Shown: positions 10,973 to 29,253, counted from the stretch's first letter. The stretch is DNA of 64,000 nt from Dehalococcoidia bacterium (GCA_042408205.1 JBHOQK010000011.1:6348-70347); one strand, 5' to 3'. The notes: generated from the sequence alone by a model not told the origin. A program made the numbers and translations.

Positions 10973-10996
10973 CTTCCCCTCCTTAAAAAAGTTCTT

Positions 10997-12746: not shown

Positions 12747-12793
12747 ACAGTTATTTTTATCCATTTACCTTTAATTTTAGGTTGTTACTTAAA

Positions 12794-12825
12794 GGGACAA
12801 CCAACAGGTTGTCCCTTTTTATTTT
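12794..12825 (+). terminator. Rho-independent terminator after the LivF-like gene.
   Basis: The stem gggacaacc / ggttgtccc flanks the loop aaca and is followed by TTTTTATTTT. Confidence 0.7.
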
Positions 12826-12857
12826 CGGAACCATAACAAATACTTAAGGGGATTATT

Positions 12858-13877: not shown

Positions 13878-13878
13878 A

Positions 13879-15087
13879 ATGCCTGGACCTTTAGATGGCG
13901 TCAGGGTTGTCGAAATAACTATGTTTCAGCAAGGACCAGTAGCTGGGATGAGGTTAGGGGATTTAGGAGCTGATGTAATTAAAGTCGAACCCAAAACTGG
14001 TGACCCAGGTAGGGGAATGATGAGAATTATTGGCACTATGACAGGTCTAAAAGGACGCAATTATTATTTTGAGAACTGCAATCGGAACAAAAGAAGTATT
14101 GCTCTTGACCTAAAAACCAAAAAGGGGATGGAGATATTTTTAAAATTGATTGATACGGCTGATGTTTTCCTTACCAATCTGAGTATTGAGGCACCAATAA
14201 AGATGGGTATTGGTCCTGAAGTTCTGCTTAAAAGAAATCCCCGATTAATTTATGCTCAGGCTTCCGGCTGGGGGCGGAAGGGTCCTGATGCCCACGAGCT
14301 TTCTTTTGATTACACGGGAATAGCTCGGTCGGGACTAATGATGTCGTGTGGTGAGCGTGGTTCACCTCCTGCCCAGATTCTGCCAGGAATGGGTGATGAG
14401 TTAGGCGGACTTATTTGCGCTTGGGCAGTAACTGCTGCCCTTTACGCTCGAGAAAAAACTGGGAAAGGACAACTGGTGGATACATCTCTAATGGGAAGCT
14501 TGATTGCCATGCTCAGTCTAATAATGGCAGCTCCAGCTATCTTGGGACAGGAATTTCCCCGGGAAATTAGAGCTGAAGCCGGCAACCCTCTCTGGAACCA
14601 CTATCGGTGTAAAGATGACAAATGGATTGCCCTTGCCCACCTCCAACCAGATAGATACTGGCCAAACGTTTGTCGGGCGCTGGGCATTACCGAATTGGAA
14701 AACGATCCCAGATTTAACAGTATTGAAAATAGGGGAAAGAATGCTAAAGAACTCATAGCCATTATGGATGAAAAATTTGCTTCCAAAACGAGAGACGAAT
14801 GGTTAGAAATTTTACGGAAAGAAGGTTGCATTTGTACCCCCATCCAATCGCCTATGGAAGTATCTAACGATCCCCAAGCTTTAGCTAACAATTATTTTAT
14901 TTATGTTGACCACCCAGTGTGGGGGAAAACAAAAGTAGTTGGTTTTCCTTGGGATTTCAGTGACACCCCAGCCTCTTGGCGCCGGGAAGCCCCAGAGCTT
15001 GGTCAGCACACTGAAGAAATATTATTAGAGCTGGGTTATACTTGGGATGATATTGTAGAATTGAAAGAAGAAGGGGTAATATTGTAG
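13879..15087 (+). CDS. Family III CoA-transferase (CaiB/BaiF/Frc family).
   Basis: The N-terminus GVRVVEITMFQQGPVAGMRLGDLGADVIKVEP is diagnostic of family III CoA-transferases. The protein is 402 aa. Confidence 0.8.
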   Translation: MPGPLDGVRVVEITMFQQGPVAGMRLGDLGADVIKVEPKTGDPGRGMMRIIGTMTGLKGRNYYFENCNRNKRSIALDLKTKKGMEIFLKLIDTADVFLTNLSIEAPIKMGIGPEVLLKRNPRLIYAQASGWGRKGPDAHELSFDYTGIARSGLMMSCGERGSPPAQILPGMGDELGGLICAWAVTAALYAREKTGKGQLVDTSLMGSLIAMLSLIMAAPAILGQEFPREIRAEAGNPLWNHYRCKDDKWIALAHLQPDRYWPNVCRALGITELENDPRFNSIENRGKNAKELIAIMDEKFASKTRDEWLEILRKEGCICTPIQSPMEVSNDPQALANNYFIYVDHPVWGKTKVVGFPWDFSDTPASWRREAPELGQHTEEILLELGYTWDDIVELKEEGVIL

Positions 15088-15109
15088 AAAACAAAAGGAG
15101 GTAAAACTA

Positions 15110-15871
15110 ATGTTAGATTACACTGGAAAAACAGCTATAGTAACGGGAGGAGCCCGAGGAATTGGCAAGGCTATTTGTCTAACTCTGGCAAGGCAAGGAG
15201 CTGACATAGCTATTGCTGATATTTTAGAAGAAGAAGGTGCCACCACAGCTAAAGAAATTCAACAATTGGGTCGACAAGCTTTGTTTGTCAAAACTGACCT
15301 GACCAAAAAGGAAGAAGTAGATAGGATGGTAAATCAGGTTCTTACGACCTTTGGCAAAATAGATATTTTGGTAAATAATGCTGGCTGGGATAAAATAGAA
15401 CTTTTTGTCAACAATTCCCCCGAATTCTGGGATAAAGTAATTGCCATAAACTTTAAGCACCAAATATATACCACCAGAGCCGTCCTTGACCATATGATGA
15501 AAAGAAAATATGGTCGGATTATAAATATTGGCTCTGATGCCGGTAGAGTTGGTAGTACTGGAGAAGCCGTTTACTCAGGCTGTAAGGGAGCTTTAATTGC
15601 CTTTACCAAAACCCTGGCTCGAGAACTGGCACGATATGGTATAACCGTAAATTGCATTTGTCCCGGACCAACCGAAACTCCTTTAGCTGAGCAAATGAAG
15701 CAAGAAGAACTGGGGAGCAAGATTTTTGCCGCTATGGAGAAAATAATTCCCTTAGGCAGACTATGTACCCCTCAAGACGTTGCCAATGCTGTAGCCTTTT
15801 TTGCTTCTGACGAAGCCAGTTATATTACTGGGCAAACCTTAAGTGTTAGCGGTGGACTAACTATGGTATAA
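15110..15871 (+). CDS. Short-chain dehydrogenase/reductase (FabG-like 3-oxoacyl/3-hydroxyacyl dehydrogenase).
   Basis: The NAD-binding motif TGGARGIGKA is present. The catalytic residues fall in YSGCKGAL (YxxxK). Confidence 0.8.
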   Translation: MLDYTGKTAIVTGGARGIGKAICLTLARQGADIAIADILEEEGATTAKEIQQLGRQALFVKTDLTKKEEVDRMVNQVLTTFGKIDILVNNAGWDKIELFVNNSPEFWDKVIAINFKHQIYTTRAVLDHMMKRKYGRIINIGSDAGRVGSTGEAVYSGCKGALIAFTKTLARELARYGITVNCICPGPTETPLAEQMKQEELGSKIFAAMEKIIPLGRLCTPQDVANAVAFFASDEASYITGQTLSVSGGLTMV

Positions 15872-15919: not shown

Positions 15920-16519
15920 TTAATGGGGCATAATTAAAGTAAAATAAGAAGGAAGTATACCTGTAGGACAGAGAGGATAGCACTCTTGACAACCTGGGCA
16001 TTCCTTACGAGCTATTGCAGGAAATAGAACAACCTCCTTTTGTGTTCCTCTGCCAATAAAGCCAATAGCATGTTTCTTTTTCACCTCTGCACAATAACGG
16101 ACACATAGACCACAAAGAATACAGAAGGTAGGTTCAGTCTCAAATCTTTTGGCTTGGGCTTCGGTTATACCATATTTTAATCCGTAATTTCGTAATTCAT
16201 AGTTTCTTAAGGCTTGGATTCCCGGAACCCGAGCCCACAAAAGTTCTAATAAAAGCTTCCGAATTTTGACTACCCTTTCCGATTCTGTCTCTACTATTAA
16301 TCCATCCTCAACCGGATAAACACAAGAAGCAACCAATCTTGAGTGCTTTCCTCTAATTATCTCCACAGTGCAAAGGCGGCAAGCACCATAAGGAGCTAAC
16401 TTTTCATGGTAACAAAGAGTAGGAATGTCAATACCAATTCCTTTTGCTGCTTGAAGAATGGTCATTTCCGTTTCTGCGGTAACCTTTATGCCATTGATAA
16501 CTAAATTAATCGCCTTCAT
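15920..16519 (-). CDS. Ferredoxin resembling the NuoG/HndD N-terminus, with a [2Fe-2S] site plus 2x[4Fe-4S]. Likely the terminal electron-transfer subunit of the Bam-like complex, BamI-like but truncated.
   Basis: The 2Fe-2S ligands are CYHEKLAPYGACRLC. The 4Fe-4S ligands are CILCGLCVRYC and CPGCQECYPLCP. It is the last gene of the bam-like operon. Confidence 0.6.
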   Translation of the reverse strand: MKAINLVINGIKVTAETEMTILQAAKGIGIDIPTLCYHEKLAPYGACRLCTVEIIRGKHSRLVASCVYPVEDGLIVETESERVVKIRKLLLELLWARVPGIQALRNYELRNYGLKYGITEAQAKRFETEPTFCILCGLCVRYCAEVKKKHAIGFIGRGTQKEVVLFPAIARKECPGCQECYPLCPTGILPSYFTLIMPH

Positions 16520-16546
16520 TTTCCTTTGCCCGGCTTCTTCCTTCTT

Positions 16547-17110
16547 TTACTTCCAGTAACTCCACCACCAGCTTTGTCCTTTTTTAGTTAAAGCCTCTTG
16601 CCTTTTAGTAATGTAGTCTGAGATTAAATCTTTATTCTCCCGGACATACCTTTCAACTGCTTCGAGATCTTGTCTTAATCGCCCCAGGTCTTTCCCTTCA
16701 CTTATCCCAAGGGGTCCCAATTCCTTTAGTTGATGGGTGAATTTAGTCATAATTTCTGCAAAACGAATTCCTTCAGAAGCTGATACCCATTCTATCCGTA
16801 GTCTTTCCGGATTCAACCCTATTTGAGAAAGTAGTTTCTTACATAAATTTGTCATCTCTAATGCCTTATAATTTCCTTCTGTGACATAATGGCATTCCCC
16901 AAGCCAACAACCACCAATAAACACCCCATCAGCCCCTTTCAGGAAAGCCCGAAAAACAAAAACGGGGTCGACCCTTCCTGAACACATCACCCTTATTACC
17001 CTTATATTAGGGGGATATTGGTAACGAGAGACTCCTGCCAGGTCAGCCCCAGCATAGGCACACCAATTGCATAAAAAGCCTAAAATCTTTGGTTCATAAC
17101 CATATTTCAT
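16547..17110 (-). CDS. bamF: MvhD/FlpD-like [2Fe-2S] protein, BamF-like.
   Basis: The MvhD signature is LGFLCNWCAYAGAD...CSGRVDP. A 4-nt overlap with the upstream HdrA-like gene suggests translational coupling. Confidence 0.7.
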   Translation of the reverse strand: MKYGYEPKILGFLCNWCAYAGADLAGVSRYQYPPNIRVIRVMCSGRVDPVFVFRAFLKGADGVFIGGCWLGECHYVTEGNYKALEMTNLCKKLLSQIGLNPERLRIEWVSASEGIRFAEIMTKFTHQLKELGPLGISEGKDLGRLRQDLEAVERYVRENKDLISDYITKRQEALTKKGQSWWWSYWK

Positions 17111-20100
17111 GAACTAACCTCAACAAGAGCTGGAAACGCAGCATCAATTTGGGCTAATATTTGTTCATCAGTAAAGTGTTTTAAGGAAATAGCCCTGGCA
17201 GGACAAACAGTATTACATAGACCATCCCCTTTACATAGTACAGAAATTACCCTGGCTTTCTTGCCCTCAGAGGTATCATAAAGCTCTATCGCACCGTATT
17301 TACAAACTGCTTGACACTGACCACACCCAATACAGTAGCTTTCATTCACTTCGCAAATAGCACCCGGAACTGTCACTGAATCCTTAGAAAGAATAGTAGC
17401 TGCTCTGCCAGCAGCTCCATAAGCCTGCCGAATGGTTTCTGATATATGCTTGGGATAGTGAGCCATCCCACATAGAAAAATACCTTCAGCAGCGCAATCA
17501 ACTGGTCTTAGCTTGACATGAGCTTCCAAGAAGAAACCATCGGGGTTTAAAGGTACTTTGAATAATCGGGATATTTCCGCATTGGTTTCGGAGGGGATAA
17601 CCGCCGCTGCTAAAGCCAGGAAATCAGTATCAATGAGAAGCTTCTTACCTAAAATAGGGTCAGTTAGAGTAACCCTGAGACGACGTTGATCACCTTCTTC
17701 AACAACTTCCACTTTGGGTTTATCTTCAGGCTCATACCGGATGAATTTCACTTCTCGGTTAGCGGCTTCTCGGTAATAATCTTCCTTAAATCCATAGGTT
17801 CTTATATCTCGATAAATAATATAAATATCCTTTCGAGGATTTATTTCTTTTAGTTTCAAAGCACATTTTATAGCCTGACTACAGCAGACTCGGCTACAGT
17901 AATTTCTACTTTTCTCTCGGCAACCAACACATAAGATCATTACCAAGTTTTCAGCGTTAATCACTTTCTCATCTCTTTTAGCAATTTTTTCTTCCAGCTC
18001 CAATAAAGTAAATACCCTCTCATCTTTACCATAAAGGTATTCAGTAGGTTTATATTCCTGAGCACCAGTAGCAATAATGGCTATTCCATGTTTTATTTCC
18101 CTAGCCTTTCCTTCAGATACTATCTTAGTCACAAAATTCCCGACATAACCAGAAACTTCAGTAACGGTAGAATCGGTAAAAATATGAATTAAGGGGTGCC
18201 GATAAACTTTATGTATAAGGTCCTTTAAATAGGCTTGAACATCAATCCCTTCTAAAGTGTAATGAATCCTTCGAGCTATCCCACCCAAATCTTTCTCCTT
18301 TTCTATTAGATAAACCTCAAATCCCTGGTTGGCTAAACTAAGAGCACTAATCATTCCAGCTATACCACCACCGATGACTAACCCCTTTTTATCCACAGGG
18401 AGTTCAAATTCTTTCAAAGGTTGTAGCAAAGTAGCTCGGGCTACTGACATCCGAACCAAATCCTTCGCTTTTTGGGTAGCAGCCTCCTTGTCCCGGGAGT
18501 GCACCCAAGAACAGTGTTCTCTTATGTTAGCCATATCGAAGAAATATTGATTGACCCCTCCTTCTCGCAGGGTATCCCGGAATAATGGTTCGTGTGTCCT
18601 AGGAGTGCATGCAGCTACAACTACTCGATTAAGCTGTTTTTCTTTAATTGCCTCTGCTATTTGCTGAGCAGCATCGGTGGAACAAGACCAGGGGTTTTCT
18701 TGAACATGAACAACGTTAGGTAAGGTAGAAGCATATTCAACTACTGAAGGAACGTCTACCACTCTTCCAATATTGGCTCCACAATGGCACACAAATACTC
18801 CAATCCTTGGTTTTTCCCCCGAGACATCTCTTTCTGGCGGATACTCCCTTTCTCGGGCTAATTTCCCTCGCCGGTAGGAAAGAAGTTCACTACAAAGGGC
18901 AGCAGCACCACTGGCAGTCATAATGGCTTCTGGAATATCCATAGGACCCTGAAAGGCACCACTGACAAAAATTCCCTTGCGAGATGTTTCTATAGGATTA
19001 GAAGGATTACCTTTGCAAAATCCATAAGAATTTAATTCGATGCCAAACTTATTAGCCAGCTCTCTTACATTTTCAGGAGGGTTTAAACCAACAGACAATA
19101 CAACAAGGTCAAATTCCTCTTCTTTCACTATCCCATTAGCAGAGTACCTGATAGTTACATTCTGGCTTTCCGGAAGCTCCTTTCCTAAGGACACGTAGCT
19201 TCTTATAAATCTGACTCCAGGAAGGTTTGCAGCTCTTTGATAAAATCGCTCAAAATCTTTACCCCAGGACCGGATATCATTATGAAATATAGTCGCTTCA
19301 ATATCAGGGTCGTGGTCTTTAGCTAAGATTACCTGCTTTTGGGTATAGGTGCAGCATACCGTGGAGCAATAACTATTACCACCCGGGATGACTTGCCTGG
19401 AACCAACACATTGAATCCAGGCTATTTTCTTAGGATGCCTCCCATCCGAAGGACGTCTTATCTCACCCTCATAAGGTCCACTGGAACATAATATCCGCTC
19501 AAAGTCAAGACTGGTTACTACATTCTTTATCTTTCCATACCCATAATCACCTCTTAGCCTTGGGTCAAAAATCTCATAGCCCGGGGATAGAATTATAGCT
19601 CCTACTTCTATTTCTATTTTTTCTTCTTTTTGATAAAGGTCAATAGCATGTTGGGGACAGACCGTCTCACAGATACTGCATTTTTTATCTTTGAGGAAAA
19701 GACATTTTTCGGGATCTATATAAGTAACCAAAGGAATTGATTGGGGAAAATATATATGGCTACATTTAGTAAAAGATAAGTTTTGATTATATCTATCAGG
19801 GACTTTTACAGGACAATATACAGAGCAGGTAGTACAACCTTTGCATATATCATCTAAAATATATCTTGGCTTTTTAATCAAGGTTACTTTGAAATTTCTT
19901 GCCTCCCCTTCTACCTTATCTACTTCAGTATAGGTAAGAATGTTAATGTTAGGATGTCGGCTACATTCAATAAACTTAGGGGATTCAATACATAAAGAGC
20001 AATCATTAGTAGGAAAAGTCTTATCCAGCTGAGCCATTTTCCCACCAATAGCCGGTAATTTGTCCACCAAATAAACCTTAAAACCCATATCTCCAAGATC

Positions 20101-20178
20101 TAGAGAAGCTTGGATACCACTTATTCCAGCCCCTACCACCATAACATCGCCAACATAAGCTAATTTTTCTTCTTCCAT
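17107..20178 (-). CDS. bamE: Double HdrA-like FAD/Fe-S oxidoreductase (BamE-like, 1023 aa), with two HdrA modules plus ferredoxin domains.
   Basis: Two FAD-binding Rossmann motifs are present (VMVVGAGISGIQAS and VIGGGIAGMISALS). There are numerous CxxCxxC clusters. The size matches G. metallireducens BamE (~1000 aa). No in-frame TGA is present, so the protein is not a selenoprotein here. Confidence 0.7.
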   Translation of the reverse strand: MEEEKLAYVGDVMVVGAGISGIQASLDLGDMGFKVYLVDKLPAIGGKMAQLDKTFPTNDCSLCIESPKFIECSRHPNINILTYTEVDKVEGEARNFKVTLIKKPRYILDDICKGCTTCSVYCPVKVPDRYNQNLSFTKCSHIYFPQSIPLVTYIDPEKCLFLKDKKCSICETVCPQHAIDLYQKEEKIEIEVGAIILSPGYEIFDPRLRGDYGYGKIKNVVTSLDFERILCSSGPYEGEIRRPSDGRHPKKIAWIQCVGSRQVIPGGNSYCSTVCCTYTQKQVILAKDHDPDIEATIFHNDIRSWGKDFERFYQRAANLPGVRFIRSYVSLGKELPESQNVTIRYSANGIVKEEEFDLVVLSVGLNPPENVRELANKFGIELNSYGFCKGNPSNPIETSRKGIFVSGAFQGPMDIPEAIMTASGAAALCSELLSYRRGKLAREREYPPERDVSGEKPRIGVFVCHCGANIGRVVDVPSVVEYASTLPNVVHVQENPWSCSTDAAQQIAEAIKEKQLNRVVVAACTPRTHEPLFRDTLREGGVNQYFFDMANIREHCSWVHSRDKEAATQKAKDLVRMSVARATLLQPLKEFELPVDKKGLVIGGGIAGMISALSLANQGFEVYLIEKEKDLGGIARRIHYTLEGIDVQAYLKDLIHKVYRHPLIHIFTDSTVTEVSGYVGNFVTKIVSEGKAREIKHGIAIIATGAQEYKPTEYLYGKDERVFTLLELEEKIAKRDEKVINAENLVMILCVGCREKSRNYCSRVCCSQAIKCALKLKEINPRKDIYIIYRDIRTYGFKEDYYREAANREVKFIRYEPEDKPKVEVVEEGDQRRLRVTLTDPILGKKLLIDTDFLALAAAVIPSETNAEISRLFKVPLNPDGFFLEAHVKLRPVDCAAEGIFLCGMAHYPKHISETIRQAYGAAGRAATILSKDSVTVPGAICEVNESYCIGCGQCQAVCKYGAIELYDTSEGKKARVISVLCKGDGLCNTVCPARAISLKHFTDEQILAQIDAAFPALVEVSS

Positions 20179-20190: not shown

Positions 20191-21000
20191 TCAATCAATT
20201 TGACGCTCTATCTTTAGCCCAAACCGCTGTGGGTGAGAATAAACAGAAAGGCGATTACCTCGGGCATAACCAACCAAAGTAATATCTAAATCCCTTGCCA
20301 ACGATATAGCACGCCAGGTAGGGGAGCTCCTGGAAATAATAACTGGAACCCTCATCTTTGCCACTTTGAGCACCATCTCCGAAGAAATGCGACCAGTAGT
20401 AAAGAGTATTCCATCTTTTATTGATAAATTCCTGAGCAGACACTCACCTTGGATCTTGTCTAAAGTATTATGTCGCCCCACATCCTCAGCCATTACCATC
20501 AAGTCCTTGGTATCCCATAGAGCCGAGGCATGCACTCCACCACAAAAACGATACAATTCCATTTGTTCTTGAAATTGCTTCATTAGATTTAGCACTTCCG
20601 TTGGTGTAACAACAAGATTTGAATTGACCCTCTCTCCTTGAGTTTTAAAACCGAACCCACCACCACAGCCAGAAGTAAGTACTCGCTGTCTGGGCAATCG
20701 GTATTCAGGATTGGTTAGCCTGACATCAGCCATTAACATGTTTTGGCAAATCTCTAATCTGGCGACGTCGCTTATTTTTGAAATAATTCCTTCTGTGTAC
20801 AAAAACCCAAGAACAAGACAATCCAACTTGGTTGGAGTACATAGGATAGAAACCAGTTCTTGAAGATTTACGTAGATGGTAAGCTCTATTTCATCCGGTA
20901 CTGAGGTTAAGATAGTACTCCATCCCTCATCAGTAAACCGATGAGAGACTACGTTCTCAATAGCACCTTTAATTGTAAATTCACTAATCGCTTTTGACAT
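20191..21000 (-). CDS. fdhD: FdhD-like sulfurtransferase (formate-dehydrogenase accessory family).
   Basis: FdhD motifs are present (LTSGCGGG, GGVHASALW, VGRHNTLDKIQG). The protein is 269 aa. It is inserted between the BamD-like and BamE-like genes. Confidence 0.55.
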   Translation of the reverse strand: MSKAISEFTIKGAIENVVSHRFTDEGWSTILTSVPDEIELTIYVNLQELVSILCTPTKLDCLVLGFLYTEGIISKISDVARLEICQNMLMADVRLTNPEYRLPRQRVLTSGCGGGFGFKTQGERVNSNLVVTPTEVLNLMKQFQEQMELYRFCGGVHASALWDTKDLMVMAEDVGRHNTLDKIQGECLLRNLSIKDGILFTTGRISSEMVLKVAKMRVPVIISRSSPTWRAISLARDLDITLVGYARGNRLSVYSHPQRFGLKIERQID

Positions 21001-21016: not shown

Positions 21017-22159
21017 CTAAATTACTTCCTGAACGACCTCAGTAATATCTTTTATCTCAATAGCTTCATTATTCCCAAAGGTTAACTTACTATCCTCAAA
21101 ATTGATAATACAATATGGACAGGAAGTAACTAATTCTTTAGCCCCAACTTCTATAGCTTGTTTTACTCTGATATCGGAGAATCTTTCACCTTTTGGAGTA
21201 TCCATCCAAATCCTGCCCCCTCCCCCACCACAGCAAAGACTGCTTTCTCTCGCCTCCGGCATTTCTACCAATTCTACACCGGGTATCTTCTTTAAAATAT
21301 CCCGAGGTTCATCATATATGTTATTATGGCGACCAAGGTAACAAGGATCGTGGTAAGCGACTTTCTTGGGATATTCCTTAGTTAGCTTAAGTTTGTCTTG
21401 GTTGATAAGCTGAGATAGATACTGAGTAATATGAATTACCTCAAAATTCACTTTAAATTCGGAATATTCGTTTCGGAAAGTATGATAACAATGGGGGGAA
21501 GAAACAACAATTTTTTTAACACCCTTATCAATAAAAGTTTTAATATTTTCCTTAGCTAAACGTTTAAATAATCCCTCATCCCCAGTCTTACGGAGACTCT
21601 CCCCACAACAATTCTCTTCAGAACCTAATATCCCAAAATCCACCCCCACTTTATTGAGAATATTAGCTGTAGCGATAGCTACCTTCTTTACTCTGGGGTC
21701 ATAATTTAAGTAGCAACAGGTAAAATATAAAACTTCTGTCTCCTCAGTAAAATTTTTCACCAATAATCCTTTTGCCCACTCTGCCCTTTTTTCTCGTTTT
21801 TCACCAAGGGGATTACCTAAGGTGCCAAGACTAGTTCTTACACTGCGAATCGGAGCTGGAGAAATACCAGCTCCCGAGGCAATCCGACGCAAAGACATAC
21901 TAACATTTATTGTTTCTACCCCCCTTGGACACCACTGGGGACATATGCCACAAGTAGTACATCGCCATATATCCTCACTTTCTATTTCAGCCAAACCAAA
22001 GGTAGCCTGCCGGACGATATAGCGCATGCTAAAATTTCTAACTTTGTTCCAAGGACAAACCGTATCACACATTCCGCATTGATAGCAAAGCTTGAAGGAT
22101 TCTCCGCCAGCTTCTTTTATAGCAACTATGGCTTCTTTAAAAGGAGCTAAGGTTTCCAC
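21017..22159 (-). CDS. bamD: HdrD/GlcF-like Fe-S oxidoreductase with two CCG domains (BamD-like).
   Basis: Two ferredoxin motifs are present (CYQCGMCDTVCP and CTTCGICPQWCP). Two CCG motifs are present (FTCCYLNYDP and SSLCCGGGGG). The 380-aa size is close to BamD (387 aa). Confidence 0.7.
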   Translation of the reverse strand: METLAPFKEAIVAIKEAGGESFKLCYQCGMCDTVCPWNKVRNFSMRYIVRQATFGLAEIESEDIWRCTTCGICPQWCPRGVETINVSMSLRRIASGAGISPAPIRSVRTSLGTLGNPLGEKREKRAEWAKGLLVKNFTEETEVLYFTCCYLNYDPRVKKVAIATANILNKVGVDFGILGSEENCCGESLRKTGDEGLFKRLAKENIKTFIDKGVKKIVVSSPHCYHTFRNEYSEFKVNFEVIHITQYLSQLINQDKLKLTKEYPKKVAYHDPCYLGRHNNIYDEPRDILKKIPGVELVEMPEARESSLCCGGGGGRIWMDTPKGERFSDIRVKQAIEVGAKELVTSCPYCIINFEDSKLTFGNNEAIEIKDITEVVQEVI

Positions 22160-22178: not shown

Positions 22179-22709
22179 CTACTTTCGCCCTTTACTAATT
22201 CGGGTAACGGTATCCATTACCGTCTTTAAGCCATATTTCTTTATTAATGAGTCTAACCCTATTTCCAACTCCCCAGGCTTCTTTTCTTCTTCCCCTTCCA
22301 CTTCTCTTTCTTCATAAGTTAAAGCGTCCGATAGGCACCACTGAACACACATTGGTTCCGGTAATGGTGGTTCTTCTTCACACATGTCACATTTTAAAGG
22401 TAAACCAGAATCAGGTTCTTTAAAAAGACTGCGGGAAGGACAAGAAGCTCGGCAAAAGCTACATTCGTCATATTCCTTGCCGTCAATGATATAAATGTTT
22501 CTGCCATTACATTCGGCTTCAGTATATTCCCCAGCAAATACTGGAACAAAAATATTTCTTCTGGGGTCAAAAAATACCCGAATCCGAGACCTTTCTGGAT
22601 TGATACTGCTATATTTAGGTGAAGCGTGAAAAGCAGAACAAACCACTTCACAGGCTCGGCAACCATTGCATTTATCCACATCAATTTTTATTACCTTAAT
22701 TTTCTTCAC
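22179..22709 (-). CDS. bamC: Poly-[4Fe-4S] ferredoxin subunit (BamC-like).
   Basis: Three cluster-ligand sets are present (CNGCRACEVVC, CSFCRASCP and CDMCEE...CVQWC). The protein is 176 aa. It overlaps the bamB stop by 14 nt. Confidence 0.65.
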   Translation of the reverse strand: MKKIKVIKIDVDKCNGCRACEVVCSAFHASPKYSSINPERSRIRVFFDPRRNIFVPVFAGEYTEAECNGRNIYIIDGKEYDECSFCRASCPSRSLFKEPDSGLPLKCDMCEEEPPLPEPMCVQWCLSDALTYEEREVEGEEEKKPGELEIGLDSLIKKYGLKTVMDTVTRISKGRK

Positions 22710-24663
22710 TGGTTATAATCCCCCTTTGTTCCAAGTCTTGGCTAACATAATCTAAACCTAATTCATGTAAGGTTTTTTTAGTAGGAATCCCTTCATTATT
22801 CCAGCCTTTAAATTTGTAATATTCATCAAGCAACTTTGCTTCATACTCCGGAAACCTTTTCTTCCAATGGTCTTCTGGCGGACGCTCGTCTTTTCTTCTC
22901 AAACCCCTTCTGACGTTGATAGCTCTAACTAAATTTCGGTTTCTTCGCGTTATTTTCCATAGTTCAGCTTCATCAATATCAAGCCCGGTGGCAAAGGAGA
23001 TTACCTGAGGCAAATTATGTATATGATAAGGAGGCTTTAGAGGAAACGATGATAAACCGGCACAAATACCAGTGCAATCATCTATGTAATGCATTGTCTC
23101 CTGCCAATCAACAAGCTCGCAAACTAAGTCAATAGATGGATAAAAGGGGAAGGAATGTTCTCCGCGAGGCTCCCATTCTAAAATAAATTGCTTAAACCTT
23201 TCATTAGGAACCTGGATCCAATCTTTGACAAACTCCTCTTTCTCCTCCCTGGTAGCAAAAGGAGCTTGAGGCAGATTACCTTCAATTTGGGTGATGCTTA
23301 TTTTTTCTCCAGTAGCATACATGAGATAAAAAATAGGATTTAGCATACCAAGTTTAATGGGCATCTGCTCCAGTTTTTTAGTTGTATTATGGTCATAGGC
23401 TTCTGCCCCTTTACCAATCTGACGCGCTGCCCAATAAACGCCATTAGCCAAAATATCCCCTATCCCTTCTCGCCGGACGATCCGGTCAAGGAGCCAGAAA
23501 AATCTTCCCTCAGGATCAGAGGGCATTCCTGCCATGTCCTGGTCAGTTAAAATGCCTGCCTCATAAAGTTCAAGAGCAAAAGCTATAACTTGAGGCGTTG
23601 AATATCCATCTACTCCATACTCCTGAGCCACACCAGCGATTCTAAAACCGAAATCCAAGTCTAACATGGCTGCCATAGTATACGTCAGTTTGGAATAGCA
23701 TTTCATCATGTATCTTTTAATCGTGGGATGCCTTATTATCCCGCCACATTTAAGGGGACAGTTATAGCAGCTTATCAGCCGTTCTACTGCCTTGTCTTGT
23801 ATCTCTTTCCATGTTTCTGAGGTTTCCTTAGTCCAGAAACCGGTTCTTCTAAGACGAGCATTTCCCCAAGCAAAATTTTCCGTATGCCAGGCTTCATCGT
23901 GGATTGCCATTTCTTGAGGTGCCCCAAGAAAAGCTAAAATGGGCGGTACGCCTTTAATTGGATTTTGTTGCCGCCATTGTATATATTTGAGGATTTCATT
24001 ACATAGGTTAGTAAATTCAGCTGGTCGAGCAATAAAAATGTCCTTTGTACCTCGGACGGCTATAGCCTTCAACTTTTTATCCCCCATAATAGCACCTATC
24101 CCCCCTCGGCTGGCACTAGATCTGCCATGCTCGATAGAGGCAAAATAAACCCTGTTTTCCCCAGCCAGACCAATAGCCGCTACTTGGGCTTTTGGCTCCT
24201 TGAGCTCTTGACGGATAAGCTCTGCCGTTTCCAGACAACCTTTCCCTGCCAGATGCCGAGCATCCCGAATTTCCACTTTATCATTGTTTATCCACAAATA
24301 AACTAAATCGGGAGACTTACCCCGAATAATGATTTTATCGTAGCCAGCATATTTCAGCTCTGGTCCAAAAAATCCCCCCATCATGGAATAGGCCATCAGT
24401 AAAGTTTGGGGCGAAAAAGTAGAAATAATCGTCCGATTAGCTCCAATAGTCGGTGTGCCATCTAAGAGACCGGCGCTAAATATGAGTAAATTATCTGAGG
24501 AAAAGGGCTCAACTTCAGGAGGCACCCTATCCCATAAAATCTTGGCGTTAGTGCCTAAACCTCCTAAATGAAGCTCGGTTAATTTTGGGTCAGTAGTCAC
24601 TCTTTCAATGTTGCCTCGAGATAAATCAATTTCTAAATTAACTCCTGTCTCAGCATACCTCAA
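22696..24663 (-). CDS. bamB: Tungsten aldehyde:ferredoxin-oxidoreductase-family enzyme, most likely the class II benzoyl-CoA reductase active-site subunit BamB or a paralog for another aryl-CoA.
   Basis: The N-terminus MRYAETGVNLEIDL...LGGLGTNAKILWDRVPPEVEPFS...KYAGYDKIIIRGKSPDLVYLWINNDKVEIRD matches the highly conserved BamB N-terminus as recalled from the literature. The protein is 655 aa. It is followed by BamC/D/E/F-like genes in canonical order. Confidence 0.7.
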   Translation of the reverse strand: MRYAETGVNLEIDLSRGNIERVTTDPKLTELHLGGLGTNAKILWDRVPPEVEPFSSDNLLIFSAGLLDGTPTIGANRTIISTFSPQTLLMAYSMMGGFFGPELKYAGYDKIIIRGKSPDLVYLWINNDKVEIRDARHLAGKGCLETAELIRQELKEPKAQVAAIGLAGENRVYFASIEHGRSSASRGGIGAIMGDKKLKAIAVRGTKDIFIARPAEFTNLCNEILKYIQWRQQNPIKGVPPILAFLGAPQEMAIHDEAWHTENFAWGNARLRRTGFWTKETSETWKEIQDKAVERLISCYNCPLKCGGIIRHPTIKRYMMKCYSKLTYTMAAMLDLDFGFRIAGVAQEYGVDGYSTPQVIAFALELYEAGILTDQDMAGMPSDPEGRFFWLLDRIVRREGIGDILANGVYWAARQIGKGAEAYDHNTTKKLEQMPIKLGMLNPIFYLMYATGEKISITQIEGNLPQAPFATREEKEEFVKDWIQVPNERFKQFILEWEPRGEHSFPFYPSIDLVCELVDWQETMHYIDDCTGICAGLSSFPLKPPYHIHNLPQVISFATGLDIDEAELWKITRRNRNLVRAINVRRGLRRKDERPPEDHWKKRFPEYEAKLLDEYYKFKGWNNEGIPTKKTLHELGLDYVSQDLEQRGIITSEEN

Positions 24664-25523
24664 TTTTTACCCCCTATTTTCTGATAGTCGTTAAATACGG
24701 AATCAAAATACTTATTGGCTTTGTCAGCTAAAAGATTATGATATTCTCGGAATAAAGCTGCAGCTTGAGGACGCAACCAATCATCAGGTAACAGTTCCTT
24801 AGGCAAGTCAGGGTCAAAAAAAGGAAATTTACGGTATTCGTGAATAAGCATAAACCTTTCCACAAAACACTCACTATCTTCAATAATTTCCCCGCGACGA
24901 AGGCGCTCTAAATGTTTTTCCAATTTAGGCTGATATTTAGCAATGAAAGCAGCATATTTCTCCTGGATTTTTGTCAAATTCCAACATCGAGTCACTATAC
25001 GCCGGGGGTCAGTAAAACCCTGATGTTTGGCTTGAAAGATTTCAACATATTCCCGGATTTGGAGAGAATCGACTAATTCCTCAACCTCTTTAGTTAAATC
25101 ATAAGGAGAAATCCAGGTAGCCTCACTCAAAGCGCCATATCCCATCCAGCTTAATTCTTGACGTAAACGGTTTCTTATCTCTCGCTTGTTTTCCGGGATA
25201 GAGTAAGTAACAATATACCACACTCCTTCCCAGTGATTATCTTTCCGCTTAAAGATACGCTCAGCTCCCTTAACCAAAAGGTCATTTCCTTTAGGGGTTA
25301 ATGAATAAAAGCTCTTTTTACCTATCCGCCTCGCTTTTAATAAACCTATCCGGCACATCCGGGATACTGCTGACCGTATAGCCTGCTCCGATAATCCAAA
25401 GTTAGATAGTATCCGGATTAGACTACCAATCCCAATTTCACCCCCCCTATGGCGAATATAATCCCCATATAAGGTAAGTATGGTGGATTGAGGACGCAAT
25501 AGATTTATAGTTTTATATGTCAT
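24660..25523 (-). CDS. paaX: PaaX-family transcriptional regulator (aryl-CoA-responsive repressor type).
   Basis: The N-terminal winged helix and PaaX-like core are recognisable (LRPQSTILTLYGDYI...GIGSLIRILSNFGLSEQAIRSAVSRM). The ATGA stop/start overlap with bamB places it in the same transcription unit. Confidence 0.65.
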   Translation of the reverse strand: MTYKTINLLRPQSTILTLYGDYIRHRGGEIGIGSLIRILSNFGLSEQAIRSAVSRMCRIGLLKARRIGKKSFYSLTPKGNDLLVKGAERIFKRKDNHWEGVWYIVTYSIPENKREIRNRLRQELSWMGYGALSEATWISPYDLTKEVEELVDSLQIREYVEIFQAKHQGFTDPRRIVTRCWNLTKIQEKYAAFIAKYQPKLEKHLERLRRGEIIEDSECFVERFMLIHEYRKFPFFDPDLPKELLPDDWLRPQAAALFREYHNLLADKANKYFDSVFNDYQKIGGKN

Positions 25524-25881: not shown

Positions 25882-27036
25882 ATGCAACGTCGGGTAGCTA
25901 TAATCGGTGTTGGTTACACCCCCTTTCGGTCAATAACTCCCGATATTTCTTTTAAAGAAATGATGTTTGAAGCCGCCCAAAAAGCTTATGAAGATGCCGG
26001 TGTCTGCCCTCAGCACGATATTGACGCTTTTGTCACCTGTGGGGACGACTTTACTCATGGCAGAAGCATTTTCAATATTCATACTCCGGATAATCTTGGA
26101 GCAGTGCTTAAGCCTATTCACACTCTCTCTGCTGAAGGTATTTATGGTCTGGCAGATGCTTACATGCTAATAAATACTGGTTTAGTCGATATTATGGCGG
26201 TAGAATCCCACAGTAAAGCCTCAAACATCCTTACCCCCTATTACTTAATTGCTCATGCTATGGATCCAATTTATAACAAACCCTTGGGTTATAATCCTTA
26301 TTTTATTGCTGGTATGGAAATGAACCGTTATATGTTTGAAAGTGGGACAACCAAAGAACAGTGTGCTTTAGTTTCAGTCAAAAATAAAGCAAATGCTTTA
26401 CTTAATCCTTTAGCTGCCCATGGGGATAAGATAACAGTAGAAGATGTCTTTAACTCGGAAATGATGTTTTATCCTCTAAACCGTTTAGATATAAGTCCTC
26501 CCGCTGATGGTGGTATTGTCATGGTTTTAGCTTGTGAGGAAAAAGCCAAGATTTTATGTGAGAAACCAATATGGATAAGAGGTGTTGGCTGGTGTTCGGA
26601 TGCTCCGAGTTTAGAGACAAGGGAGTGGGGAGAAGCTGTGTATGCTCGGTTAGCCGGTGAAATGGCATATAAAATGGCGGGGATAAAAAACCCAAGAAAA
26701 GAAATTGATTTTGCTGAAGTAGATGACACTTTCTCATACAAAGAACTTCAACATCTGGAAGCTTTAAAACTCTGTCGCCCTGGAGAAGCTGGCTTTATGG
26801 TGGCTGAAGGCGCAACTCAAAGGGAAGGCGAGTTTCCGGTAAATGTCTCCGGGGGAAGTTTAGGTATTGGCTGGTTATATGAAGCTACAGGCCTGCAAAG
26901 AGTTTTAGAGGTAGTGCTCCAGCTCCGGGGTGAAGCCGGTAAAAGACAATTACCCAACGTCAAAATAGGTTTAGCCCAATCATGGCGAGGTATCCCCGCC
27001 AATAGCGGGGCAGTAATAATTTTAAGCAATGAGTAA
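25882..27036 (+). CDS. SCP-x-type thiolase (paralog 1 of a tandem pair).
   Basis: The N-terminus RVAIIGVGYTPF is thiolase-like. The gene is followed by a second thiolase and two DUF35 genes. Confidence 0.75.
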   Translation: MQRRVAIIGVGYTPFRSITPDISFKEMMFEAAQKAYEDAGVCPQHDIDAFVTCGDDFTHGRSIFNIHTPDNLGAVLKPIHTLSAEGIYGLADAYMLINTGLVDIMAVESHSKASNILTPYYLIAHAMDPIYNKPLGYNPYFIAGMEMNRYMFESGTTKEQCALVSVKNKANALLNPLAAHGDKITVEDVFNSEMMFYPLNRLDISPPADGGIVMVLACEEKAKILCEKPIWIRGVGWCSDAPSLETREWGEAVYARLAGEMAYKMAGIKNPRKEIDFAEVDDTFSYKELQHLEALKLCRPGEAGFMVAEGATQREGEFPVNVSGGSLGIGWLYEATGLQRVLEVVLQLRGEAGKRQLPNVKIGLAQSWRGIPANSGAVIILSNE

Positions 27037-27048
27037 AAGGAGGAAAAA

Positions 27049-28206
27049 ATGCGTAAGGTTGCTATTGTTGGTGCCGGCATGACCAAATTCATGCGACGAG
27101 CTCAGGAAACCGGGAAGGAATTGGCTTGGCAAGCTGCCAAGATGGCTCTTGACTCTTGTGAGTTAACTTTAAAAGATGTAGATTGTGTAGTAATGGGTTC
27201 AGCCCCTGATGCCTTTGATATGGTTCACCTGAAGGCTGAATATCTGAGTGATGGTGCTGGAGCCTGGAGAAAGCCTTATGTGAGGGGTTTTCTTGGTGGT
27301 GGCACCGGTGTCTTTACCGCCTGTCAAGCTTGGTATCATGTAGCTTCAGGACTATTTGATATCTGTTTAGCTGTAGCTGAGGAGAAGATGTCTTCATGTA
27401 TGCCCCATCCCCAGGGAGCCTTTGTTACCTGCTGGGATCAGTTTACCGAAAGCCCCTTGGGGACAAGCCTTCTCTGGTTCTTTGCTTGGGAAATGAACCG
27501 GTATATGACTGTCCATGGTATTACTGAACGAGAAATAGCTTTGGTCTCAGTTAAAAATAAGAAAAATGCCCTAGACCATCCTTGTGCTCAATTAGCTGCT
27601 GAAATTACCGTAGATGATGTGATGAATTCAGAAATTATGGCCTGGCCAGTAAAGAGACTGGATGTTAGTCCGACCAGCGACGGAGCCGTAGCTTTGGTTT
27701 TTGCTTCCGAAAATATCGCTAAACGGATTACTGATAAACCAGTTTGGGTCTTAGGGGTAGGCTGGTGTCTCGATACTATGTATATTGGACAAAGGGACCT
27801 TTATTATCCCAAATACGTGGAGTATGCAGCTCGGATGGCTTACAATATGGCAGGAATTAAAGAGCCCGCTAAAGAAATAGATATTGCTGAACCTTATGAT
27901 CCTTTTGACTATAAAGAGCTTCACAATGCAGAAGGACTTCTTCTTTGTGGCAAAGGCGAAGCAGTAAAGCTTTTGCTCGATGGAGTGACTCAAAGAACAG
28001 GTCGTCAGCCTTGGTGCCCTTCAGGAGGGCTATTAGGGGTAGGCAACGCTATTGCAGCTGCTGGCTTAATGAAGGTAGCCGAACTTTTTTGGCAATTGCG
28101 GGGTGAGGCGGGTAAAAGACAAGTGCCAGGAAAACCAAGGAAGGGGGTAGCTCAAGCTTGGGGAGATGAGATGCAAGTAGGCACCGTTATCGTAGTAGGA
28201 ATATAA
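27049..28206 (+). CDS. SCP-x-type thiolase (paralog 2 of a tandem pair).
   Basis: KVAIVGAGMTKF and the ~385-aa size fit the family. Its stop lies 13 nt after the first thiolase, with an RBS. Confidence 0.75.
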   Translation: MRKVAIVGAGMTKFMRRAQETGKELAWQAAKMALDSCELTLKDVDCVVMGSAPDAFDMVHLKAEYLSDGAGAWRKPYVRGFLGGGTGVFTACQAWYHVASGLFDICLAVAEEKMSSCMPHPQGAFVTCWDQFTESPLGTSLLWFFAWEMNRYMTVHGITEREIALVSVKNKKNALDHPCAQLAAEITVDDVMNSEIMAWPVKRLDVSPTSDGAVALVFASENIAKRITDKPVWVLGVGWCLDTMYIGQRDLYYPKYVEYAARMAYNMAGIKEPAKEIDIAEPYDPFDYKELHNAEGLLLCGKGEAVKLLLDGVTQRTGRQPWCPSGGLLGVGNAIAAAGLMKVAELFWQLRGEAGKRQVPGKPRKGVAQAWGDEMQVGTVIVVGI

Positions 28207-28216
28207 AGGAGGAACC

Positions 28217-28720
28217 ATGAGCGAAAAAATAAAAGTCTGGCCAGGAACCTCTCTTAGCGAAGAGGATATAAAGGAGAAGAAAGTCTTATTAACAGAATGG
28301 TACCCTAATCTTAAATATGCTTGGGATGCCGGTATTGGTTACGGCAGGTATTTTGCTGAGCTAAAAAAGGGCAGAATTATAGGCACAAAATGTCATAAAT
28401 GCCACCGAGTGTTACTCCCTGCCAGAGTTTTTTGTGAGTGGTGTTTTCGGACAGTAGACGAATGGGTCTATCTACAAGATACCGGTACTATTAATACTTT
28501 CTCCATTGCTTATACTGGTACTATGGCTGAACGATTAACTGAGCCACGTATTCCAGCACTAATTGAAATTGACGGCTCGGGGGGAGTAGCTATTATGCAT
28601 CTCATCGGCGAAGTTGACCCCTGGAAAGTAAAAATTGGGATGAGAGTCAAAGCAGTTTGGAAACCAGAACCAGAGCGGGAAGGTGCCATAACTGATATAA
28701 AATACTGGAAACCGATTTAG
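28217..28720 (+). CDS. DUF35 OB-fold/Zn-ribbon protein (BbsA-like thiolase partner), copy 1.
   Basis: The ribbon CHKCHRVLLPARVFCEWC is present. The protein is 167 aa. Confidence 0.75.
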   Translation: MSEKIKVWPGTSLSEEDIKEKKVLLTEWYPNLKYAWDAGIGYGRYFAELKKGRIIGTKCHKCHRVLLPARVFCEWCFRTVDEWVYLQDTGTINTFSIAYTGTMAERLTEPRIPALIEIDGSGGVAIMHLIGEVDPWKVKIGMRVKAVWKPEPEREGAITDIKYWKPI

Positions 28721-28729
28721 GAGGTGAAG

Positions 28730-29206: not shown

Positions 29207-29253
29207 CTTAGTAGCTACTATCCTTTCCTCTTTTTGATAACTGATAACGAATT

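What the first reader, a model, noticed from the sequence alone, without database searches (positions are those of the whole stretch)
20191..21000. FdhD-like sulfurtransferase embedded inside the bam-like operon
FdhD is known for delivering the sulfido ligand to Mo/W-bis-PGD formate dehydrogenases. An FdhD-family gene sits between the BamD-like and BamE-like genes (motifs GGVHASALW, VGRHNTLDKIQG). It has only a single Cys in the usual CxxC position (SGCGGG). Its placement suggests that the tungsten cofactor of the BamB-like enzyme needs a dedicated sulfuration or maturation step. The identity of the sixth W ligand in BamB has been debated, so this is of interest.
Basis: inference. Interest (0 to 1): 0.55.

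Follow-up and report, generated by a model that had tools for sequence, protein, structure and literature searches.

The report
FdhD cofactor chaperone inside benzoyl-CoA reductase operon
A gene of the FdhD family, known only for preparing the metal cofactor of formate dehydrogenases, sits inside the operon for the tungsten enzyme that breaks aromatic rings without oxygen, and at least three unrelated FdhD lineages keep this association across several bacterial phyla, which points to an unrecognised maturation factor for that enzyme.

Summary
Window 20191-21000 (- strand) encodes a 269-aa canonical FdhD: Pfam 243.8 bits, TIGR00129 above its cut-off, predicted fold TM 0.76-0.90 to 2PW9/4PDE, all family-conserved residues present. 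It lies 16 and 12 nt from bamD and bamE in the operon paaX-bamB-C-D-fdhD-E-F-(bamI-like). BamB is a true orthologue (1063 bits to G. metallireducens BamB; W-ligand Cys322 conserved).

The single loop Cys is not distinctive: 113 of 139 diverse FdhD representatives have one Cys and none has CxxC.

The link to bam is recurrent. Close homologues are bamD-fdhD-bamE in 4 of 4 long contigs and about 10 of 11 informative metagenome loci. FdhD genes occur in 20 of 80 bamB genome loci. Two other FdhD lineages, each about 25-30% identical to this one, are also bam-linked in 4 of 4 contigs: a CxxC type after bamI, and a loop-less, Cys-less type divergent from paaX. The window has no Mo/W-bisPGD gene.

Best reading: a BamB-dedicated tungsten-cofactor chaperone, with sulfuration optional. 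This is inferred from gene context, not shown. The characterised Geobacter operon lacks the gene. The claim about a sulfido sixth ligand remains open. The gene order is already listed in two papers, without analysis.

The parts
20191..21000 (-). fdhD-family gene (269 aa), lineage 1, the type embedded in bam operons
   Evidence: Gaps of 16 nt to the bamD stop and 12 nt to the bamE start. GC is 0.40-0.42, like its neighbours.
20665..20667 (-). Codon of Cys112, the loop cysteine equivalent to E. coli FdhD Cys121
   Evidence: Alignment. It lies in the low-confidence loop of the model (pLDDT 58-70 for residues 101-120). That is consistent with the disordered loop described for the FdhD crystal structures (PMC10609526).
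20467..20532 (-). Family-invariant core from His157 (= E. coli His171) to E172-D173-x-G175-R176-H177-N178
   Evidence: Conserved in 99-100% of lineage 1 and 91-100% of diverse representatives. Invariant in alignments A1 and A2.
22696..24663 (-). bamB, the W-pyranopterin catalytic subunit of class II benzoyl-CoA reductase and the proposed client
   Evidence: 1063 bits to 4Z3W over the full length. MMKC (Cys322) and E251/H255/E257/H260 are conserved. AFOR_N plus AFOR_C domains.
22179..22709 (-). bamC (polyferredoxin)
   Evidence: Fer4 domains. 64-85% identical to the gene after bamB in the related loci.
21017..22159 (-). bamD (HdrBC/HdrD-like, two CCG domains)
17107..20178 (-). bamE (double HdrA-like flavoprotein)
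   Evidence: HdrA2 model 965 bits.
16547..17110 (-). bamF (MvhD/FlpD-like)
   Evidence: PF02662, 179 bits.
15920..16519 (-). bamI-like 2Fe-2S plus 4Fe-4S protein. No bamG or bamH lies between it and bamF.
   Evidence: Fer2_4 and Fer4 domains, HoxU/NuoG N-terminal type. 54% identical to L044 BamI.
24660..25523 (-). PaaX-family regulator, first gene of the unit
   Evidence: TIGR02277, 259.9 bits. The same position is held in Dehalococcoidia loci.

Best explanation
The gene encodes a canonical FdhD-family protein that has been recruited as an accessory (maturation) factor of class II benzoyl-CoA reductase.

Proposed mechanism, all of it inferred:
1. It is co-transcribed with bamBCDEF.
2. The FdhD dimer binds the newly made tungsten bis-pyranopterin cofactor on its conserved nucleotide/pterin-binding face.
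3. It protects the cofactor and hands it to apo-BamB.
4. In this lineage Cys112, on the flexible loop, may carry a persulfide sulfur from a cysteine desulfurase to tungsten. That sulfur could be a transient or a permanent ligand.

The function shared by all bam-linked FdhD lineages is cofactor binding and insertion. Sulfuration is an optional extra.

Shown here: family membership, operon position, and the recurrence and specificity of the bam association. Inferred: the client (BamB) and the chemistry.
For: 1. Tight operon embedding: 16-nt and 12-nt gaps, no composition break, and no excess of promoter-like or terminator-like sites.

2. Specificity of lineage 1. Homologues 57-72% identical lie between bamD and bamE in 4 of 4 long contigs and in about 10 of 11 informative metagenome loci.

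3. Of 80 species-representative bamB loci, 20 carry an FdhD-family gene within about 10 kb. With one or two fdhD genes per genome of several megabases, fewer than 1 in 80 would be expected (rough inference).

4. Independent recruitment. Four FdhD lineages, 25-40% identical to each other, sit at different positions.
   - Lineage 4 (CxxC) lies directly after bamBCDEFGHI in 4 of 4 contigs from Myxococcota, Aminicenantaceae and Desulfobacteraceae.
   - Lineage 3 (loop deleted) is divergent from paaX-bamBCDE in 4 of 4 contigs.
   - One locus (L108) carries lineages 1 and 3 together.

5. Co-inheritance. FdhD pairwise distances track those of BamB, BamD and BamE as well as the Bam subunits track each other (r 0.49-0.60; Mantel 0-15 of 2000 permutations). 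Mean divergence is similar: 0.29 against 0.24-0.27.

6. No alternative client nearby. The window has no Mo/W-bisPGD gene. The neighbours checked beside lineages 2-4 are unrelated genes.

7. All family-conserved residues and the FdhD fold are retained, so the protein is functional rather than decayed.

8. Expression with Bam subunits elsewhere. FdhD was detected in the ORM2a proteome within the bam cluster (PMC13101534). It was transcribed in the Peptococcaceae BF culture (PMC5852087).

9. From the cited literature: BamB has W bound by four dithiolene S, one Cys and a sixth ligand (PMC12096430). From established knowledge of formate dehydrogenases: FdhD's known clients have Mo/W bound by four dithiolene S, one Cys or Sec, and a sixth ligand. 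The two first coordination spheres therefore have the same composition.
Against: - 60 of 80 bamB loci sampled show no FdhD gene in the region fetched. The only biochemically and structurally characterised enzyme, from G. metallireducens, has bamB-I as consecutive locus tags with no fdhD (PMC1924859).
- FdhD is known to bind bis-MGD through its GDP moieties (PMC6239281, PMC10609526), whereas the BamB cofactor is W-bis-MPT without nucleotide (PMC12096430). The bam-linked lineages show no loss of family-conserved residues.
- The three bam-linked lineages share no convergent signature.
- No BamB residue distinguishes loci with FdhD from loci without it.
- Unclassified Mo/W-bisPGD genes lie near some bam loci (L084, L086, L100, L054, L012).
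- Everything rests on gene context. There is no biochemical evidence.
Confidence: 0.6

Rival explanations
1. The FdhD serves a conventional client encoded elsewhere, and it merely shares the bam operon's regulation. The client would be a formate dehydrogenase or another Mo/W-bisPGD oxidoreductase. One plausible reason for shared regulation is that formate or another bis-MGD-dependent reaction is needed during aromatic degradation.
For: - The protein is a fully canonical FdhD with every conserved residue of the family, including those presumed to bind the guanine dinucleotide.
- FdhD is promiscuous among FDHs and even TorA in vitro (PMC6239281).
- Unclassified Mo/W-bisPGD genes lie within 1-9 kb of bam clusters in L084, L086, L100, L054 and L012. 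A Sec-FDH lies upstream of bamB in L027.
- Most bam clusters work without a linked fdhD.
Against: - The 64-kb window has no Mo/W-bisPGD gene.
- Mo-bisPGD neighbours are not clearly enriched at loci with FdhD: 3 of 15 against 4 of about 50, which are small numbers.
- L027, which has the adjacent Sec-FDH, has no fdhD.
- fdhD normally lies beside fdh operons (PMC10609526). Yet three separate lineages sit beside bam in 12 of 12 long contigs examined.
- Placing a housekeeping FDH factor under a PaaX-type aromatic regulator would be odd (inference).
Confidence: 0.2
2. FdhD installs a terminal sulfur ligand on the BamB tungsten. The sixth ligand would then be sulfido or sulfhydryl, as in FDH, and sulfuration would be the essential function.
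For: - BamB and FDH have the same kind of first coordination sphere: four dithiolene S, one Cys or Sec, and a sixth ligand. The FDH sulfido is what FdhD supplies (PMC12096430; PMC10609526).
- The loop Cys is conserved in 117 of 120 lineage-1 members, and CxxC is conserved in 119 of 120 lineage-4 members.
- The identity of the sixth ligand rests on computation and is still disputed, water against carbonyl.
Against: - Lineage 3, bam-linked in 4 of 4 contigs, lacks the loop and its Cys in 120 of 120 members.
- Published crystallographic and EXAFS interpretations treat the sixth ligand as a light O or C donor (PMC11858030).
- The field's current mechanism uses W-OH2.
- The loop cysteines are not essential even for FDH maturation by FdsC.
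Confidence: 0.12
3. The protein acts on another part of the complex rather than on BamB. Candidates are sulfur supply for the unusual non-cubane Fe-S clusters of BamD and BamE, or some interplay with the selenoprotein machinery.
For: - In lineage 1 the gene lies exactly between bamD and bamE.
- One lineage-1 member lies outside bam, next to selA, selB and selD.
- A lineage-3 gene is followed by SufC-like and SufBD-like genes.
Against: - No FdhD-family member is known to act on Fe-S clusters.
- The conserved core is the pterin/nucleotide-binding fold.
- Lineages 3 and 4 sit at other positions, before paaX or after bamI, so adjacency to bamD is not general.
Confidence: 0.05

Closest known systems
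E. coli FdhD (PDB 4PDE) and R. capsulatus FdsC: formate dehydrogenase sulfurtransferase and bis-MGD chaperone
   Same: Same family by HMM, by fold (TM 0.78-0.85 to 4PDE) and by every conserved residue, including Cys121 and His171. Probably the same kind of job: binding a bis-pyranopterin cofactor and delivering it to an apo-enzyme.
   Different: - About 25-30% identical.
- One loop Cys instead of CxxC.
- Encoded inside a class II benzoyl-CoA reductase operon with no FDH nearby.
- The putative client belongs to the AOR/WOR family, whose cofactor is W-bis-MPT without the GDP groups that FdhD is known to bind.
Desulfotalea psychrophila FdhD-like protein (PDB 2PW9)
   Same: Best solved relative (E=1.4e-31). 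Same single-Cys loop, SGCGG. Fold TM 0.76-0.90.
   Different: Function untested. About 28% identical. Its context was not examined here.
FdhD genes already listed in bam clusters: Desulfobacterota ORM2a (PMC13101534) and the Peptococcaceae BF culture (PMC5852087)
   Same: Same gene order, bamB-C-D-fdhD-E. The gene is expressed, by proteome and by transcripts respectively.
   Different: Those papers only list the gene, as 'an FdhD chaperone' in one and mislabelled bamI in the other. They propose no role. ORM2a also has bamGHI, whereas this window has only a bamI-like gene.
FdhD next to the WOR clade-41 operon of Cetobacterium somerae (PMC13328260)
   Same: [quoted passage not shown]
   Different: A different WOR clade: a periplasmic class V enzyme, not BamB clade 62. 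The gene is downstream of the operon, not embedded. Also untested.
Dedicated molybdoenzyme chaperones of other folds (NarJ/TorD family, XdhC)
   Same: The same logic: a system-specific cofactor chaperone encoded in the structural operon. XdhC also handles sulfurated cofactor (PMC10609526, PMC13653126).
   Different: Unrelated folds and families.

Membership tests
FdhD/NarQ family (PF02634, TIGR00129) | Profile score above the curated cut-off over the full domain | tested here: met
   PF02634: 243.8 bits against a cut-off of 27.2, profile positions 2-236 of 237. TIGR00129: 178.1 against 140.9. The E. coli-type equivalog NF001943 is below its cut-off (186.3 against 269).
FdhD/NarQ family (PF02634, TIGR00129) | FdhD fold: N-terminal beta domain plus C-terminal cytidine-deaminase-like alpha/beta domain | tested here: met
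   Model pLDDT 92.4. Foldseek hits 2PW9 and 4PDE at E about 1e-22, TM 0.76-0.90. The next hits have E above 1e-3.
FdhD/NarQ family (PF02634, TIGR00129) | Family-invariant residues (E. coli numbering: E40, H171, E187-D188, G190-R191-H192, D196-K197, G200, R219, E223, K227, R274) | tested here: met
   All are present. They are conserved in 97-100% of lineage 1 and invariant in A1 and A2.
FdhD/NarQ family (PF02634, TIGR00129) | Catalytic loop cysteine (E. coli Cys121), and a second Cys (Cys124) in the E. coli type | tested here: met
   Cys112 aligns with Cys121. There is no second Cys, but that is the majority state: 113 of 139 representatives have a single Cys. It is a known variation (PMC10609526).
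FdhD/NarQ family (PF02634, TIGR00129) | Binds Mo/W-bis-MGD or GDP, and accepts sulfur from a cysteine desulfurase | not testable with these tools
   Needs purified protein: Form A against Form A-GMP analysis, GDP binding, and persulfide transfer assays.
FdhD/NarQ family (PF02634, TIGR00129) | Genomic proximity to a formate dehydrogenase operon (a usual feature, not a strict one) | tested here: not met
   No Mo/W-bisPGD catalytic subunit occurs among the window ORFs of at least 100 aa. tblastn with two Mo-bisPGD queries found none. The remaining unscanned ORFs are shorter than 240 aa.
Class II (Bam-type) benzoyl-CoA reductase gene cluster | BamB orthologue with the W-ligand Cys322 and the E251/H255/E257/H260 site | tested here: met
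   1063 bits over residues 1-651 of 4Z3W. The motifs YMMKC and PQEMAIHDEAWH are conserved.
Class II (Bam-type) benzoyl-CoA reductase gene cluster | bamC, bamD, bamE and bamF following bamB in order | tested here: met
   Domain content. Collinear with 60 or more related loci.
Class II (Bam-type) benzoyl-CoA reductase gene cluster | bamGHI (NuoE/NuoF/HoxU-like NAD module) | tested here: not met
   Only a BamI-like gene is present (15920-16519). The window has no BamG or BamH homologue. Many related loci also lack GHI.

The most novel reading that the evidence does not exclude
Class II benzoyl-CoA reductase needs an FdhD-type factor because its tungsten centre is built like that of formate dehydrogenase, with four dithiolene sulfurs, one cysteine and a terminal sulfur. 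In that case the disputed sixth ligand of BamB would be a sulfido or sulfhydryl group delivered by FdhD. The hydrogen-atom donor in the Birch-like ring reduction would be W-SH rather than W-OH2. Organisms without a bam-linked fdhD would use their housekeeping copy in trans.
Probability: 0.12. Interest if true: 0.85.

Novelty: new variant of a known kind. Interest (0 to 1): 0.62.

Why it matters
Class II benzoyl-CoA reductase is the key enzyme of aromatic-ring degradation in strict anaerobes, and it operates at the lowest redox potential known in biology. How its tungsten cofactor is assembled and inserted is unknown, and the identity of its sixth tungsten ligand is still argued over (water or carbonyl).

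A conserved, operon-encoded FdhD would be the first candidate maturation factor for an AOR/WOR-family tungstoenzyme. It gives three concrete handles:
- a gene to co-express when attempting heterologous production of active BamB;
- a direct test of whether sulfur is delivered to the tungsten;
- a genomic marker that separates sub-types of bam clusters.

It would also extend the FdhD family beyond formate dehydrogenases and beyond guanine-dinucleotide cofactors.

Tried and rejected
1. The single Cys as a special feature: rejected, because it is the majority state in the family and is present in 2PW9.

2. An FDH or other bis-MGD client in the window: none found.

3. BamB residues that differ between loci with and without FdhD: none. 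The best column differs by only 0.5 in frequency.

4. A convergent signature shared by the three bam-linked FdhD lineages but rare in other FdhDs: only three conservative hydrophobic columns.

5. Loss of family-conserved residues, which might signal adaptation to a nucleotide-free cofactor: none. The actual GDP-contact residues of 4PDE could not be mapped, because no coordinates or residue list were available in the papers read.

6. Recent insertion of the gene: GC is uniform at 0.37-0.45 across the operon, and distances co-vary with the Bam subunits.

7. Single origin on the BamB tree. Loci with embedded FdhD are scattered over a neighbour-joining BamB tree (for example L076 has the gene and its near-sister L077 does not). 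The tree is poorly resolved, so repeated gain and repeated loss could not be told apart.

8. Anticorrelation with bamGHI: suggestive in the genome loci (0 of 11 embedded clusters are followed by GHI), but contradicted by ORM2a and by the bamI-like gene in this window. Inconclusive.

9. Promoter and terminator scan: counts do not exceed those of shuffled sequence, so it is uninformative.

10. Two NCBIfam calls failed on in-frame stop codons. These turned out to be TGA codons, probably selenocysteine.

11. Literature searches for any analysis of FdhD with BamB or YdhV found only listings or speculation.

Full report
**1. What is there**

Window 20191-21000 on the - strand is an ATG-started ORF of 269 codons. 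It matches Pfam FdhD-NarQ at 243.8 bits over almost the whole profile, and TIGR00129 above its curated cut-off. Its only solved relatives are the Desulfotalea FdhD-like protein 2PW9 and E. coli FdhD 4PDE.

A model built on a 64-sequence alignment (pLDDT 92.4) superposes on those two entries with TM 0.76-0.90 and on nothing else convincingly. The only poorly predicted stretch is residues about 101-125, the loop that carries Cys112. This fits the disordered cysteine loop described for FdhD crystals (PMC10609526).

**2. Context**

The gene lies in a co-directional, tightly packed unit on the - strand:
- a PaaX-family regulator (24660-25523);
- bamB (22696-24663);
- bamC (22179-22709);
- bamD (21017-22159);
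- fdhD (20191-21000);
- bamE (17107-20178);
- bamF (16547-17110);
- a bamI-like 2Fe-2S/4Fe-4S gene (15920-16519).

The gaps around fdhD are 16 and 12 nt. GC content is uniform, and promoter-like and terminator-like sites do not exceed those found in shuffled sequence.

BamB is a true orthologue of the structurally characterised G. metallireducens enzyme. It scores 1063 bits over residues 1-651, with the tungsten-ligand Cys322 and the E251/H255/E257/H260 site conserved.

The rest of the window encodes aromatic and aryl-acid catabolism and housekeeping functions. It has no formate dehydrogenase or any other Mo/W-bisPGD catalytic subunit.

**3. The 'single Cys' point**

Cys112 aligns with E. coli Cys121, and the Cys124 position is Gly. 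Among 139 diverse representatives of the family (34-50% identical, from an exhaustive HMMER search), 113 have a single Cys, none has CxxC, and the rest have none. 2PW9 has the same SGCGG loop. Variation in loop cysteines is already described (PMC10609526), and the cysteines are dispensable for FdsC (PMC6239281). The feature is real but ordinary.

**4. Is the bam association more than an accident?**

Three tests were made.

(a) *Starting from the FdhD.* Its closest relatives (57-72% identical, from Chloroflexota, Bacillota, Nitrospirota, Zixibacteria and 'Deltaproteobacteria' bins) lie between bamD and bamE in all four long contigs examined. The same holds in about 10 of 11 informative metagenome loci. 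The one exception is a locus flanked by an EamA transporter and selA/selB/selD. The next nearest family representatives are at most 50% identical, so this is a discrete clade, called lineage 1 here.

(b) *Starting from BamB.* Among the 80 best species-representative bamB loci, 60 were informative for the bamD-bamE junction. Nine of these carry the embedded lineage-1 gene. A more sensitive scan found an FdhD-family gene in 20 of the 80 loci.

(c) *The other eleven belong to three further lineages* that are only 25-40% identical to lineage 1 and to each other.
- Lineage 2 has a single Cys and is divergent upstream of paaX (L007, L028).
- Lineage 3 has the whole Cys loop deleted and holds the same divergent position (L001, L002, L009).
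- Lineage 4 has a CxxC loop (SCGICG) and lies downstream of bamF or bamI (L018, L029, L033, L044, L052, L064).

Homologues of lineage 4 (65-75% identical) sit immediately after bamBCDEFGHI in 4 of 4 long contigs, from Myxococcota, Aminicenantaceae, Desulfobacteraceae and an unnamed bin. Homologues of lineage 3 (72-87% identical) sit divergently next to paaX-bamBCDE in 4 of 4 contigs. One of those contigs (L108) also carries an embedded lineage-1 gene, beside two BamB paralogues.

The neighbours on the far side of these genes are unrelated: acyl-CoA dehydrogenase, URO-D, GNAT, EamA, transglutaminase-like, ETF and SufCB-like genes. None is a molybdopterin enzyme.

Within lineage 1, FdhD distances co-vary with BamB, BamD and BamE distances about as well as the Bam proteins do with each other. 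The FdhD correlations are r 0.49-0.60, against 0.53-0.75 among the Bam proteins; the Mantel test gave 0-15 of 2000 permutations. FdhD diverges at a similar rate.

Several unrelated FdhD lineages, each specific to bam clusters but inserted at different places, are hard to explain except by a functional tie to the reductase.

**5. What it most likely does**

The three well-sampled bam-linked lineages differ in their sulfur-relay loop: single Cys in 117 of 120 members, CxxC in 119 of 120, and no loop in 120 of 120. What they share is the conserved core of the family.

The function most likely common to them is therefore cofactor binding and delivery (a chaperone role), with sulfur transfer as an optional addition. 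The client that is always present is BamB, the only pyranopterin protein of the complex.

From the cited literature, the BamB tungsten is bound by four dithiolene sulfurs, Cys322 and one further ligand (PMC12096430). From established knowledge of formate dehydrogenases, this is the same kind of first shell as in FdhD's known clients, where the sixth ligand is the sulfido that FdhD provides. This makes BamB a chemically sensible client. I put this explanation at about 0.6.

**6. What argues against it**

- Three quarters of the sampled bamB loci, and the characterised Geobacter operon (Gmet_2087 to Gmet_2080; PMC1924859), have no linked fdhD. If FdhD is needed there, it must act in trans.
- FdhD is known to hold bis-MGD through its GDP groups, whereas BamB carries nucleotide-free W-bis-MPT.
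- The bam-linked lineages have lost no family-conserved residue and share no convergent signature.
- BamB itself shows no residue that tracks the presence of FdhD.
- Unclassified Mo/W-bisPGD oxidoreductases occur near some bam loci. Their best hit is Fdh-alpha at 338-391 bits, far below the cut-off of 666. A conventional client in some genomes therefore cannot be excluded; I put this rival at about 0.2.
- The specific idea that the sixth tungsten ligand is sulfur is weakened by the Cys-less lineage. It is also weakened by published assignments of water or carbonyl (PMC11858030). I put it at about 0.12. It is still the most interesting reading, and it is directly testable.

**7. Comparison with what is known**

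The protein is a member of the FdhD family by every feature that could be tested: profile score, fold, invariant residues and loop Cys. The exception is the usual proximity to an fdh operon, which is not met here. Cofactor binding and sulfur transfer could not be tested.

The gene order bamD-fdhD-bamE has already appeared in tables for Desulfobacterota ORM2a and for a Peptococcaceae benzene degrader. In ORM2a the protein was detected and called 'an FdhD chaperone' (PMC13101534). In the Peptococcaceae case it was transcribed and mislabelled bamI (PMC5852087).

A 2026 survey speculated that an FdhD next to a different WOR clade might activate that enzyme (PMC13328260).

No paper in the searchable library analyses the association, its breadth, or its several lineages. 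I therefore rate it a new variant of a known kind: a known chaperone family with a probable new client class.

**8. Verdict**

The functional link to the bam enzyme is well supported by comparative genomics. The emphasis on the single Cys is misplaced. Sulfuration and the sixth ligand remain open.
- Interest is moderate to high (0.62). The finding gives a concrete and cheap experimental handle on the maturation of a difficult tungstoenzyme, but it rests on gene context only and has been partly noticed before.

Noticed in passing
window 15920-17110: The bam operon here has no bamG or bamH (NuoE/NuoF-like). A 199-aa BamI-like 2Fe-2S plus 4Fe-4S gene follows bamF directly. Most loci with an embedded FdhD end after bamF, so this is an intermediate architecture.
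   Followed up: partly
window 24660-25523: A PaaX-family repressor is the first gene of the bam unit. This arrangement is conserved in the Dehalococcoidia-type loci, which suggests regulation by an aryl-CoA effector.
   Followed up: partly
L084 15781-17874; L054 3226-5268; L100 3-1913; L012 40-2082: Unclassified Mo/W-bisPGD oxidoreductases of about 680-700 aa recur next to bam clusters. Their best NCBIfam hit is Fdh-alpha at 338-391 bits, far below the cut-off of 666. The L012 copy has an in-frame TGA (context GAGNI*YGPG), possibly selenocysteine.
   Followed up: partly
L027 2512-8873: A selenocysteine-type formate dehydrogenase (motif CARL-TGA-HSS) lies just upstream of bamB. It is preceded by BamE-like and BamF-like (HdrA/MvhD) paralogues. 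This locus has no fdhD.
   Followed up: no
L108 584-8753: One Dehalococcoidia-type locus holds two BamB paralogues (62% and 71% identical to the window BamB) and two different FdhD genes. One is lineage 1, embedded after bamD. The other is Cys-less lineage 3, divergent upstream.
   Followed up: partly
L110 9001-11931: The Cys-less lineage-3 fdhD is followed by SufC-like and SUFBD-core genes. This recalls the published note that Cys-less FdhDs occur in organisms with minimal Fe-S machineries (PMC10609526).
   Followed up: no
L105 10001-14858; L109 8001-12887: fdhD lies directly beside etfB-etfA and a CCG-domain Fe-S oxidoreductase. A 2026 preprint proposes this module as the high-potential electron acceptor of class II BCR.
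   Followed up: no
L093 6802-7707; L101 1-6753: This is the only lineage-1 FdhD found outside a bam cluster. It lies between an EamA transporter and an MFS transporter plus selB, selA and a selD-like gene.
   Followed up: partly
window 55495-56730 and 61986-63227: An MFS_MOT1-type molybdate (possibly tungstate) transporter and a CinA/MoCF_biosynth-domain protein lie 35-40 kb from the bam operon.
   Followed up: no
window 1-15871 and 25882-33635: The bam operon is flanked by the following genes:
- an indolepyruvate-type 2-oxoacid:ferredoxin oxidoreductase;
- a branched-chain-type ABC transporter;
- AMP-forming CoA ligases;
- a 2-hydroxyacid dehydrogenase;
- a family III CoA-transferase;
- thiolase and ChsH2-like pairs;
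- an acyl-CoA dehydrogenase.

Together they suggest an aromatic amino acid or aryl-acid degradation island.
   Followed up: no
proteins P0131, P0146, P0162, P0175, P0179, P0185, P0188, P0208, P0251: Several FdhD-family representatives are 413-533 aa fusion proteins, with an extra domain of about 170-230 aa. It is usually N-terminal. Its identity was not determined.
   Followed up: no
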